The position numbers and the translations under genes were made by a program. Shown here piece after piece: positions 25,445 to 26,356 of a stretch of 37,529 bases of DNA. Where the stretch lies: IMG/VR virus record IMGVR_UViG_2718218168_000003; one strand, 5' to 3'. This stretch comes from a virus. Taxonomy: Duplodnaviria; Heunggongvirae; Uroviricota; Caudoviricetes. The notes under the pieces were generated by a model, which ran no database searches, was not told where the DNA came from, and saw only the letters and a list, made by a program, of their open reading frames with translations. How positions within the stretch are numbered: position 1 is the stretch's first letter; the number at the start of each line of letters is the position of its first letter.

Positions 25445-26356
25445 ATGATTAACTTTGCTGAAATTGATAGTGACGGTGAAGTCTGGGAGTCATTTGCCCG
25501 TGATTTTCTTGAAGAACTTGGATTTTATATTGAATCCGCACCAGATAGAGGTGCAGATGGAGGTAAAGATCTTTTAATCACAGAGCAATTGAAAGGCCAG
25601 TTAAATAAATATAAATTTCGTTGGCTTGTTAGCTGTAAACATTATGCAAAAAGTAACAGATCAGTTTCAGAAAAGGATGAGATTAATATACAAGAACGTA
25701 TTGATGGATTCAATGCCGACGGATTCATTGGATTTTACTCAACACTACCAAGTAGTGGTCTAAATTCAAGACTGACACAATTAAAAGAGAATGGAAAAAT
25801 AAAGGACTTTCGATTCTTTGATGGTAAATTAATTGAAAATTATTTGATCAGGATTGGGTACTCAAAATTACTTCTTAGGTATCTTCCTGAGAGCTATAAA
25901 AAAATAAAACCCAAGCATTTTATTTTTAATGAATACTTGCCTATAAAGTGTGACCATTGTGGAAAGGACTTAATAGAAAACCATCATGAAGAAAATTATG
26001 ATGGCATTGTGTGCAATGCAAAGATTATACATGATGATAAACCAACTGAAGTGATAGCAGTTTATTATGCGTGTAAAGGCGATTGTGATAAATATTTCGA
26101 TGATTATTATTGGAGTAAATATAAAGCGATTACGGAATGGCAGGATATAAGTGATTTAGCTATTCCATTATTCTATCTCAAATGGATTGTGGGGATATTT
26201 AATGACCTTGAGTCTGGAAGGAAAGCATATACCAAAGAAGCCTTCGATAAAACAAAGGAGATAACATTAGCGTTATCTCAAATTGTTATGAGAGAAATGA
26301 CGGAAAAAGAAAGAGAAAGAGTGATGGATTTGAATTCACTACCTGATTACATATAA
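25445..26356 (+). CDS. Cargo gene at the P2 Z/fun hotspot: 303-aa protein with an N-terminal Mrr-like restriction-endonuclease motif (GADGGKD ... VSCKHY) and a C-terminal Cys/His-rich cluster; candidate anti-phage defence protein
   Basis: AT-rich ORF with its own promoter-like TATAAT elements and AGGAG RBS; motifs read from the translation; sits in the second known P2 accessory hotspot. Confidence 0.72.
   Translation: MINFAEIDSDGEVWESFARDFLEELGFYIESAPDRGADGGKDLLITEQLKGQLNKYKFRWLVSCKHYAKSNRSVSEKDEINIQERIDGFNADGFIGFYSTLPSSGLNSRLTQLKENGKIKDFRFFDGKLIENYLIRIGYSKLLLRYLPESYKKIKPKHFIFNEYLPIKCDHCGKDLIENHHEENYDGIVCNAKIIHDDKPTEVIAVYYACKGDCDKYFDDYYWSKYKAITEWQDISDLAIPLFYLKWIVGIFNDLESGRKAYTKEAFDKTKEITLALSQIVMREMTEKERERVMDLNSLPDYI

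What the first reader, a model, noticed from the sequence alone, without database searches (positions are those of the whole stretch)
25445..26356. Second cargo gene at the P2 Z/fun hotspot: Mrr-like nuclease domain plus Cys/His cluster
Between the tail fibre assembly gene G and the sheath gene FI sits a low-GC 303-aa ORF with its own TATAAT-like promoter elements (about 25360..25400) and AGGAG RBS. Residues about 17-66 match the Mrr/restriction-endonuclease catalytic pattern (FLEELGFYIES...GADGGKDLL...WLVSCKHY), although Ser replaces the usual Glu/Gln before the Lys. The C-terminal half carries a CDHCGKD...CNAK...YYACKGDCDKY cluster that could bind a metal. The fun(Z) position is a known site for anti-phage genes in P2-like phages, so this is a candidate nuclease-type defence effector that I do not recognise as a named system.
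Basis: partly seen in the sequence, partly recalled or inferred. Interest (0 to 1): 0.75.

Follow-up and report, generated by a model that had tools for sequence, protein, structure and literature searches.

The report
Orphan Mrr-type nuclease in P2 hotspot
A P2-like prophage of E. coli carries, at a known swap-in site for anti-phage genes, a self-contained gene for a DNA-cutting enzyme whose cutting half is a familiar restriction-enzyme fold and whose other half is a zinc-binding domain resembling nothing solved so far; it is a good but untested candidate for a new single-gene phage-defence family.

The parts
25318..25344 (.). Left arm of the imperfect inverted repeat at the hotspot boundary. 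The 11-nt perfect core AATCTGACAGT is at 25318..25328.
   Evidence: the repeat finder pair I1. Local alignment scores 24 against a shuffle mean of 13.5 and maximum of 21. It lies inside the 'left inverted repeat' annotated in AJ512685. The conserved P2 flank ends at about 25335 (my arithmetic from the coverage figures).
25366..25394 (+). Sigma-70-like promoter of the cargo gene (ATGATA-17-TATAAT).
   Evidence: Consensus scan, 10 of 12 matches. Same positions as the -35 and -10 annotated in AJ512685. Conserved in the copy in a different prophage. Activity not tested.
25433..25437 (+). Ribosome-binding site AGGAG, 7 nt upstream of the ATG.
   Evidence: Sequence; annotated in AJ512685.
25445..26356 (+). 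303-aa ORF: solitary Mrr-type nuclease with a Cys4 C-terminal domain. Identical to P2-EC67 ORF1 / WP_057075509.1.
   Evidence: dN/dS is about 0.2 against enterobacterial variants.
25445..25879 (+). N-terminal PD-(D/E)xK (Mrr/FokI-like) nuclease domain, aa 1-145.
25568..25570 (+). Codon of Asp42, the invariant putative metal-binding Asp of the GADGGKD motif.
   Evidence: Invariant in 34 sequences. Lines up by motif with GDGGID of E. coli Mrr; this is an alignment by eye on the sequence.
25631..25639 (+). Codons of Ser63-Cys64-Lys65, which take the place of the (E/Q)xK motif.
   Evidence: All three residues invariant. They correspond by eye to QAK of E. coli Mrr.
25895..26353 (+). C-terminal domain (aa 151-303) with no known fold. 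It comprises a Cys4 subdomain (about aa 160-228) and a helical subdomain (about aa 229-303).
25949..25960 (+). C169-D-H-C172: first pair of putative zinc ligands (CxxC knuckle).
   Evidence: C169 and C172 invariant.
26072..26086 (+). C210-K-G-D-C214: second pair of putative zinc ligands, at the end of a strand and the start of a helix.
   Evidence: C210, G212, C214 and D215 invariant. Secondary structure.
26496..26522 (.). Right arm of the inverted repeat; core ACTGTCAGATT at 26512..26522.
   Evidence: Lies inside the 'right inverted repeat' of AJ512685. The conserved P2 flank resumes at about 26488 (hit H33).
26582..26602 (+). Intrinsic-terminator-like hairpin (9 pairs, 7 of them G-C) followed by a T-run, closing the cargo transcription unit upstream of FI.
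   Evidence: It lies in the flank conserved among P2-like phages.

Best explanation
The ORF is a self-contained, single-gene nuclease 'moron'. It is probably transcribed in the lysogen from its own promoter, and it most likely protects the lysogen against incoming phage or other foreign DNA.

The N-terminal 145 residues form an Mrr/FokI-type PD-(D/E)xK DNA-cleavage head. The putative catalytic set is E15, D38/D42 and K65, with Ser63 in the Glu/Gln position. I infer that a Glu from elsewhere, for example invariant E79, completes the metal site, as is known for Cfr10I-type enzymes. The C-terminal 150 residues form a Cys4 zinc-stabilised module that decides what is cut, or when.

The protein never has a methyltransferase or immunity partner.

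Shown here: the fold, conserved residues, solitary architecture, mobility and purifying selection. Inferred: nuclease activity, zinc binding, the defence role and the basis of self/non-self discrimination.

Rough probabilities: active nuclease 0.8; defence function 0.7; type IV-like targeting 0.4.
For: Nuclease head:
- Pfam Mrr_cat scores above its gathering cutoff.
- The AF2 model has pLDDT 81.9 and the canonical core topology.
- E15, D38, D42 and S63-C64-K65 are invariant in 34 sequences that share only 51-92% identity with the query.

Zinc module: four invariant Cys arranged as a CxxC knuckle plus a strand-end and helix-start CxxxC.

Selection and autonomy:
- dN/dS is about 0.2.
- The gene has its own promoter, RBS and terminator.
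- It forms a single-gene integron cassette between attC-like repeats in two Vibrio species.
- The same promoter-plus-gene block sits in a second, unrelated E. coli prophage.

No partner:
- In 91 loci, no neighbour family occurs in more than 10, and those are generic recombinases and ABC ATPases.
- No Pfam family occurs in more than 3 of 143 immediate neighbours.

Defence and mobile context:
- The P2 fun(Z) site is a published defence hotspot (PMC9519451).
- The gene is embedded in type I R-M operons in L016, L094 and L096.
- Neighbours also include SIR2_2, HerA, toxin-antitoxin pairs, integrases and a conjugative relaxase/T4CP.

Distribution is patchy: 13 of 5,426 E. coli genomes and 136 species in the pattern-limited scan of 100,044.

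The C-terminal domain is as conserved as the head (51% against 54% mean column identity). This fits recognition of an invariant chemical feature better than recognition of fast-evolving phage proteins, though that reading is an inference.
Against: - There is no experimental phenotype for any member. No paper in the held library cites its accessions.
- The canonical Glu/Gln of (E/Q)xK is Ser, so activity is not guaranteed.
- The C-terminal domain resembles none of the known modified-DNA readers such as SRA, winged helix, EVE or YTH.
- That domain is acidic: median pI is 5.0 for the zinc part and 5.9 for the helical part. This is unusual for a DNA-binding module.
- Defence-type neighbours are a minority of contexts, and I ran no background control.
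- One homolog lies 46 bp from a convergent C5 methylase (L067), which would be odd for an m5C-dependent enzyme.
Confidence: 0.5

Rival explanations
1. Trigger-activated (abortive-infection type) nuclease. The enzyme is held inactive by its C-terminal domain. It is switched on when that domain senses a phage product or an infection-induced state, and then degrades DNA indiscriminately.
For: - The C-terminal domain is acidic and unlike any DNA-binding fold.
- A constitutively expressed, partnerless nuclease must be restrained somehow.
- One protein, P0240, pairs the same C-terminal domain with a different nuclease head (DUF559/MTES_1575). This is the pattern expected of a swappable sensor module.
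Against: - Sensor domains that bind phage proteins usually diverge fast. This one keeps about 50% identity across phyla and into archaea.
- There is no NTPase or oligomerisation switch domain.
- P0240 is a single metagenomic sequence on a 2.3-kb contig.
Confidence: 0.3
2. An accessory gene that is not a defence gene. It could be a selfish or addiction-type nuclease, a DNA-processing enzyme serving the mobile element, or a lysogenic-conversion factor with another host-directed role.
For: - Its depositors annotated it only as 'putative lysogenic conversion protein'.
- Most neighbours in 91 loci are ordinary or unknown genes.
- The Z/fun hotspot is mixed-purpose and also carries receptor-binding modules and invertases (bioRxiv 10.1101/2024.10.15.618418).
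- Frequent association with recombinases, integron cassettes and conjugative elements would fit any mobile cargo.
Against: - There is no antitoxin-like partner ORF in the cassette.
- It is not linked to any conserved repair or replication operon.
- Embedding inside type I R-M operons and the hotspot's record of validated defence genes favour defence.
Confidence: 0.15
3. Catalytically inactive PD-(D/E)xK scaffold. The Glu/Gln-to-Ser change has abolished metal binding, and the protein acts by binding a nucleic acid or protein without cutting it.
For: - Ser63 replaces the second acidic or amide residue in every family member.
- The Pfam match covers only profile positions 6-63 of 115 and clears the cutoff by only 3 bits.
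- Neither HMM search against PDB sequences nor hhalign against E. coli Mrr finds the relationship.
Against: - D42, K65, E15 and D38 are strictly invariant, which is hard to explain without catalysis.
- From my own knowledge, SxK active sites with a spatially recruited Glu are functional in Cfr10I, NgoMIV and Bse634I. Several invariant acidic residues (E47, E79) are available here.
Confidence: 0.1

Closest known systems
E. coli Mrr (EcoKMrr) and the Pfam Mrr_cat (PF04471) nuclease domain
   Same: - The catalytic core family is the same, with the Pfam hit above cutoff.
- The motifs line up by eye with the K-12 Mrr sequence: FE / WE in helix 1, GDGGIDG / ADGGKDL, VQAKRW / VSCKHY, GVFITTSGFT / GFIGFYSTLP.
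- Size is similar (304 against 303 aa).
- Both are solitary with no methylase partner.
- Some homologs sit next to hsdR, as mrr does in K-12.
   Different: - Domain order is reversed. Mrr has an N-terminal winged-helix DNA binder and a C-terminal nuclease; here the nuclease is N-terminal.
- The other domain is a Cys4 module of unknown fold.
- Gln of QxK is Ser.
- Pairwise BLASTP and hhalign find no significant similarity.
MspJI / AspBHI family of modification-dependent (type IV-like) restriction enzymes
   Different: They carry an N-terminal SRA-like reader for 5mC/5hmC and a C-terminal nuclease. No SRA-like domain is present here. Sequence identity over the matched region is only 13%.
P2 Fun(Z) and the other cargo genes of the P2 Z/fun hotspot
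   Same: The genomic slot between G and FI is identical. The layout is the same independent promoter-gene-terminator unit, and a role in excluding other phages is expected (PMC9519451).
   Different: There is no homology. tblastn of this protein against 50,697 phage records finds only AJ512685. P2, Wphi and L-413C share only the flanks.
Epona (single-gene integron-cassette defence system, Mrr_cat fused to a 2-TM holin-like domain; bioRxiv 10.1101/2024.07.02.601686)
   Same: It is a single-gene Mrr_cat protein fused to a non-nuclease domain. It is carried as a Vibrio integron cassette and is experimentally anti-phage. Homologs of the present gene are also Vibrio integron cassettes.
   Different: Epona's partner domain is membrane-spanning. 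This protein has no TM segment (maximum 19-residue hydropathy 1.32) and has a soluble Cys4 domain instead. I did not compare the sequences directly.
FokI cleavage domain and the Mrr-like heads of type ISP enzymes (LlaBIII) and Avs4
   Different: In those proteins the head is attached to large, well-defined recognition, motor or sensor modules. Here it is attached to a 150-aa orphan domain.

Membership tests
PD-(D/E)xK nuclease superfamily, Mrr_cat branch (PF04471) | Profile HMM match at or above the curated threshold | tested here: met
   24.1 bits against a gathering score of 21, E 4.3e-5, residues 11-76. Only profile positions 6-63 of 115 are matched. Homolog P0195 also passes, at 21.2 bits.
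PD-(D/E)xK nuclease superfamily, Mrr_cat branch (PF04471) | Alpha-beta-beta-beta-alpha-beta core fold superposable on known members | tested here: met
PD-(D/E)xK nuclease superfamily, Mrr_cat branch (PF04471) | Catalytic triad D ... (D/E/Q)xK | tested here: inconclusive
   D42 and K65 are invariant, but the middle position is an invariant Ser63. From my own knowledge, this is compatible with activity if a Glu is recruited in space, as in Cfr10I. I could not inspect the model coordinates.
Type IV (modification-dependent) restriction enzymes | Nuclease with no cognate methyltransferase | tested here: met
   No conserved neighbour in 91 loci. A C5 methylase lies within 6 kb in 3 loci and is adjacent in 1. 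N6_Mtase occurs in 2 of 143 immediate neighbours.
Type IV (modification-dependent) restriction enzymes | A recognised modified-DNA reader domain (SRA, Mrr-N winged helix, EVE/YTH/ASCH, DUF262 and the like) | tested here: not met
Type IV (modification-dependent) restriction enzymes | Cleavage requires modified DNA | not testable with these tools
   This needs in vitro cleavage assays or plating of phages with and without DNA modifications.
Named or candidate anti-phage systems in PADLOC-DB v2.0.0 | HMM match to any of 5,027 defence protein models | tested here: not met
   The only hit is REase_II at E 0.014, 13 bits, over 39 residues of the C-terminal helix. Positive control: the other hotspot's cargo in the same window hits PDC-S28 at 1055 bits.
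P2 Fun(Z) protein family | Sequence homology to the P2 fun(Z) product | tested here: not met
   tblastn against all phage records, P2 among them, returns only AJ512685. P2 records align only in the flanks.
Phage 'moron' (independently expressed prophage cargo) | Own promoter and terminator, atypical composition, and presence or absence between otherwise collinear phages | tested here: met
   Promoter-like and terminator-like sites. GC is 0.33 against 0.51. The flanks occur in 1,021 E. coli genomes, but this cargo sits at the site in only 5. Promoter activity itself was not tested.
Integron gene cassette (for the Vibrio homologs) | Single ORF bounded by attC-type repeats within an array of such repeats | tested here: met
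   In L065 the gene at 4827-5696 lies between repeat copies at 4621-4743 and 5707-5811. In L066 the gene at 301-1170 lies between copies at 95-215 and 1192-1313. The repeats have TAACAA... and ...GCGTTAT termini. An integrase is not visible on these short contigs.
Epona (Mrr_cat + holin-like TM domain) | Two transmembrane helices fused to Mrr_cat | tested here: not met
   Maximum Kyte-Doolittle hydropathy over 19 residues is 1.32. AF2 predicts a soluble alpha/beta domain.

The most novel reading that the evidence does not exclude
The conserved 150-residue Cys4 domain is a previously unrecognised nucleic-acid reader, for a DNA modification or an unusual DNA structure. Fused to an Mrr-type head, it would define a new and compact family of type IV-like restriction enzymes. 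That family spans many bacterial phyla and reaches archaea. It travels as a one-gene unit on prophages, integrons and conjugative elements.
Probability: 0.3. Interest if true: 0.65.

Novelty: new variant of a known kind. Interest (0 to 1): 0.45.

Why it matters
Single-gene defence nucleases are the simplest immune modules bacteria have, and modification-dependent enzymes such as MspJI became useful epigenetics reagents. This family couples a standard cutting head to a well-conserved zinc domain with no structural or sequence relatives. It is small (303 aa), needs no partner and is spread across very different microbes. If it protects against phages, it would add a named family to defence catalogues that currently miss it. 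It would also give the orphan domain a function and supply an easy test case: an E. coli gene with a native promoter, in a known hotspot. If it does not protect, it becomes a caution against reading every nuclease in a hotspot as immunity.

Tried and rejected
- **Sequence searches against solved structures.** The single protein, the whole-family profile and the C-domain profile gave nothing meaningful. The glucosamine-6-P deaminase and Naa30 hits at E 0.02-0.9 are noise.
- **Direct comparison with E. coli Mrr.** hhalign of the family against K-12 Mrr and BLASTP of the head against Mrr's catalytic half were not significant. Membership therefore rests on the Pfam HMM and the fold.
- **Other family libraries.** PHROGs and NCBIfam gave only sub-threshold hits. 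I rejected RusA-like at E 0.008, nagB, and the ECs_2282 CxxC family at E 0.34.
- **AlphaFold-database fold search.** The library was unavailable.
- **Other architectures of the C-terminal domain.** Of the 150 best hits among 1.84 billion representatives, almost all are the same two-domain protein or N-terminally truncated fragments. The one convincing exception is P0240. P0151, with a response-regulator fragment below cutoff, looks like a chimera or miscalled gene, and I set it aside.
- **Conserved partner gene.** I rejected the idea of a methylase, antitoxin or immunity protein after clustering neighbours.
- **PADLOC scan of 143 neighbours.** It lists hits per model rather than the number of neighbours hit, so it gives no enrichment figure. 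I ran no distal-gene control.
- **Literature.** No paper in the held library mentions P2-EC67, CAD54909, WP_057075509 or WP_000606914. The Odegrip et al. 2006 paper (PMC1367236) is not held, and I did not look up Nilsson et al. 2004 by id. Rousset et al. 2022 covers the other P2 hotspot only.

Full report
**1. What is in the sequence**

The window is a P2-like prophage essentially identical to one in E. coli S51 (NZ_CP015995; 100% over the queried 1,440 bases). Between the tail-fibre assembly gene G (24738..25265) and the sheath gene FI (26706..27896) lies a single ORF, 25445..26356 on the + strand, 303 aa.

- GC drops to 0.30-0.35 here against 0.55-0.60 in the neighbouring tail genes. The gene is 0.33 GC, 0.26 at third positions, against 0.51 for the window.
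- A sigma-70-like site ATGATA-17-TATAAT lies at 25366..25394. AGGAG lies 7 nt before the ATG. A strong terminator-like hairpin lies at 26582..26602.
- The layout is therefore that of a classic 'moron'.
- The only corrections concern the metal cluster, which is Cys4 rather than Cys/His (section 4), and the phrase 'second cargo gene'. This ORF is the only cargo at this hotspot.

**2. It has been seen before, but never characterised**

- The protein is 100% identical to CAD54909, ORF1 of 'Bacteriophage P2-EC67 proviral Z-region' (AJ512685). That record calls it 'putative lysogenic conversion protein' and marks the same -35, -10 and RBS, plus flanking inverted repeats.
- RefSeq calls it 'restriction endonuclease' (WP_057075509.1). 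Its 90%-identity cluster has 167 member sequences in E. coli, E. albertii, Cronobacter, Raoultella, Serratia, Morganella and Citrobacter, all with generic names.
- No paper in the held library cites these accessions.
- The Z/fun slot is a published second defence hotspot of P2-like phages (Vassallo et al. 2022, PMC9519451; bioRxiv 10.1101/2024.10.15.618418). Rousset et al. 2022 analysed only the old/tin hotspot.
- Among 5,426 complete E. coli genomes, 1,021 carry the hotspot flanks. Only 5 carry this cargo at the site. Eight more carry a 91%-identical copy in a different prophage remnant, next to pinE and a tail-fibre module.
- Among 50,697 phage records, only AJ512685 encodes it. P2, Wphi and L-413C share just the flanks.

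**3. The N-terminal half is an Mrr/FokI-type nuclease**

- Pfam Mrr_cat matches residues 11-76 at 24.1 bits, above the gathering score of 21.
- An AlphaFold2 model built on 34 homologs has mean pLDDT 81.9. Its element order is helix 11-24, strands 28-31, 42-50 and 55-65, helix 82-88, strand 93-98, helix 104-115, strand 121-125.
- In the alignment, whose members share 51-92% identity with the query, E15, D20, R35, G36, D38, D42, E47, W60, V62, S63, C64 and K65 are invariant.
- By eye, four motifs line up with E. coli Mrr (sequence): FE/WE, GDGGIDG/ADGGKDL, VQAKRW/VSCKHY and GVFITTSGFT/GFIGFYSTLP.
- That relationship is too weak for BLASTP, hhalign or HMM searches of PDB sequences.
- The Glu/Gln of the (E/Q)xK motif is an invariant Ser. 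From my own knowledge, SxK sites work in Cfr10I-type enzymes because a Glu is recruited from a nearby helix. Invariant E79 is a candidate here, but I could not inspect coordinates.

**4. The C-terminal half is an orphan**

- C169, C172, C210 and C214 are invariant, together with G212, D215, W232, P241, Q279, R283 and E284. C190 and H171 are not conserved.
- Modelled alone, residues 151-303 give pLDDT 83.7 and pTM 0.74. The elements are a CxxC knuckle, a long beta-hairpin, a helix beginning at the CxxxC pair, and then a helical bundle.
- This arrangement looks treble-clef-like. That is my reading of the topology, not a test.
- It is acidic: median pI is 5.0 for the zinc part and 5.9 for the helical part.
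- A profile of this domain, searched against 1.84 billion cluster representatives, finds 446 proteins at E <= 1e-3. The 150 listed are almost all the same 300-aa architecture or truncated fragments of it.
- One 460-aa protein (P0240) joins the domain to a DUF559/MTES_1575 Vsr-like nuclease instead. This hints that it is a separable module that serves nuclease heads. P0240 is a single metagenomic sequence.

**5. Distribution and context**

- A word-seeded search finds 1,286 relatives. The 120 listed are nearly all about 300 aa and full-length, and still 51-64% identical in Deltaproteobacteria, Planctomycetes, Acidobacteria and a Nitrosocosmicus archaeon.
- A pattern-limited scan of one genome per species finds it in 136 species. 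These span Proteobacteria, Bacteroidota, Firmicutes, Cyanobacteria, Chloroflexi, Planctomycetota and a Heimdallarchaeote MAG. Twelve viral contigs also carry it.
- I called ORFs within 6 kb in 91 loci and clustered them. No neighbour family occurs in more than 10 loci, and the two that reach 10 are generic tyrosine recombinases and ABC ATPases.
- No Pfam family occurs in more than 3 of 143 immediate neighbours. The gene is therefore a stand-alone unit without a cognate methylase, antitoxin or immunity gene.
- Recurrent company, where there is any, is mobile or defensive:
  - type I R-M genes, with the gene lying inside the hsd operon in L016, L094 and L096;
  - SIR2_2 and HerA;
  - YhcG nucleases;
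  - HicAB and BrnT/CopG toxin-antitoxin pairs;
  - transposases, serine recombinases, and a relaxase/T4CP.
- In Vibrio pacinii and V. rotiferianus the gene is a one-gene integron cassette between attC-type repeats. Such cassettes are reported to be rich in defence genes (bioRxiv 10.1101/2024.07.02.601686).
- I did not run a background control, so I claim association and not enrichment.
- dN/dS against four enterobacterial variants is 0.18-0.20.

**6. How it most likely works**

- Shown: the fold, the invariant putative catalytic and zinc residues, autonomy, mobility and purifying selection.
- Inferred: it is an active Mg2+-dependent DNA endonuclease, expressed in the lysogen, that attacks incoming DNA.
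- A partnerless nuclease must spare the host. I see two ways it could.
  - The way I commit to, at about 0.4, is type IV-like targeting of a DNA feature absent from the host, read by the C-terminal domain. Points in favour: the closest structural relatives of the head are modification-dependent enzymes; the solitary state mirrors mrr; some homologs sit beside hsdR as mrr does; and the C-terminal domain is as conserved as the catalytic head.
  - The main rival, at about 0.3, is a trigger-activated abortive nuclease with the C-terminal domain acting as sensor or autoinhibitor. Points in favour: the domain's acidity, its lack of any DNA-binding fold, and the use of Mrr heads in Avs4, Lamassu and Epona.
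- Lesser rivals are a non-defence cargo function (0.15) and a catalytically dead scaffold (0.1).

**7. Comparison with what is known, and novelty**

- The protein is a member of the Mrr_cat/PD-(D/E)xK superfamily by HMM and fold, with a variant active-site motif.
- I do not file it as a type IV enzyme. The absence of a partner is met, but a recognised reader domain was tested and not found, and modification dependence cannot be tested here.
- It is not homologous to P2 Fun(Z).
- It is not recognised by any of 5,027 PADLOC models, although the same library identifies the prophage's other cargo at 1055 bits.
- It differs from Epona in lacking membrane helices.
- I rate it a new variant of a known kind: a hotspot-borne single-gene nuclease whose second domain is new.
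- Interest is moderate at 0.45. A nuclease in a defence hotspot will not surprise a specialist, and the ORF has been in GenBank for years under AJ512685. On the other hand, the orphan, strongly conserved zinc domain, the cross-domain distribution and the ease of testing make it a worthwhile candidate.

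Noticed in passing
window 7988..10471 (- strand): The prophage's other hotspot, between replication gene A and portal gene Q (the old/tin position), carries an 827-aa DEAD/DEAH helicase-family protein. It matches the PADLOC candidate defence model PDC-S28 end to end (E 0, 1055 bits). This prophage therefore carries cargo at both P2 hotspots.
   Followed up: partly
window about 28783..31085 (- strand); L002 23518..25820: An IS21-family element (ISEc12: istB, 249 aa, at 28783..29532, and istA) is inserted into the tail-assembly gene E/E' region. 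A remnant is annotated 'phage tail assembly protein, incomplete'. The prophage is probably defective for tail assembly and may persist mainly as a carrier of its cargo genes.
   Followed up: partly
window 25318..25328 and 26512..26522: The variable cargo is bracketed by an 11-nt perfect inverted repeat, AATCTGACAGT / ACTGTCAGATT, lying in the conserved P2 flanks. These fall within the 'left/right inverted repeats' of AJ512685. The promoter-gene block shared with a different prophage (L003) starts and ends inside these arms, at about 25327 and 26505. This suggests the repeats mark the exchange boundaries.
   Followed up: partly
L003 6118..7029 (E. coli 30EVA1 and 7 other genomes): A 91%-identical copy of the gene, with the same promoter region, sits at the end of a different, Mu/e14-like prophage remnant. 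It lies next to a pinE invertase, inverted tail-fibre modules, a LEM-3-like GIY-YIG protein and an integrase fragment. The cassette has therefore moved between unrelated prophages.
   Followed up: partly
L065 4621..5811 and L066 95..1313 (Vibrio pacinii, V. rotiferianus): Homologs at 40% identity are single-gene cassettes between roughly 120-nt attC/VCR-like repeats in arrays of such repeats. In L065 a SIR2_2-domain ORF occupies a nearby cassette.
   Followed up: partly
L016 4187..12314; also L094 and L096: In one IMG/VR contig and two Bacteroidetes MAGs the homolog is inserted inside a type I R-M operon. In L016 the order is hsdM, hsdS-like, the homolog, hsdR. In the MAGs a YhcG/DUF1016 nuclease lies alongside.
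   Followed up: no
window 22524..24734 (+), tail fibre gene H: The tail-fibre protein contains four tandem copies of a roughly 46-aa unit (...KG(F/L)xQLSSA(T/I)NSxSETLAATPKAVKxAYDxA...). The C-terminal receptor-binding part and gene G have lower GC (0.41-0.47) than the rest of the tail genes. This is consistent with module swapping next to the hotspot.
   Followed up: no
P0240 (460 aa, metagenomic, contig 2,292 nt): A single protein joins the same C-terminal Cys-containing domain (residues 338-453) to a DUF559/MTES_1575 Vsr-like endonuclease domain instead of the Mrr-type head.
   Followed up: partly
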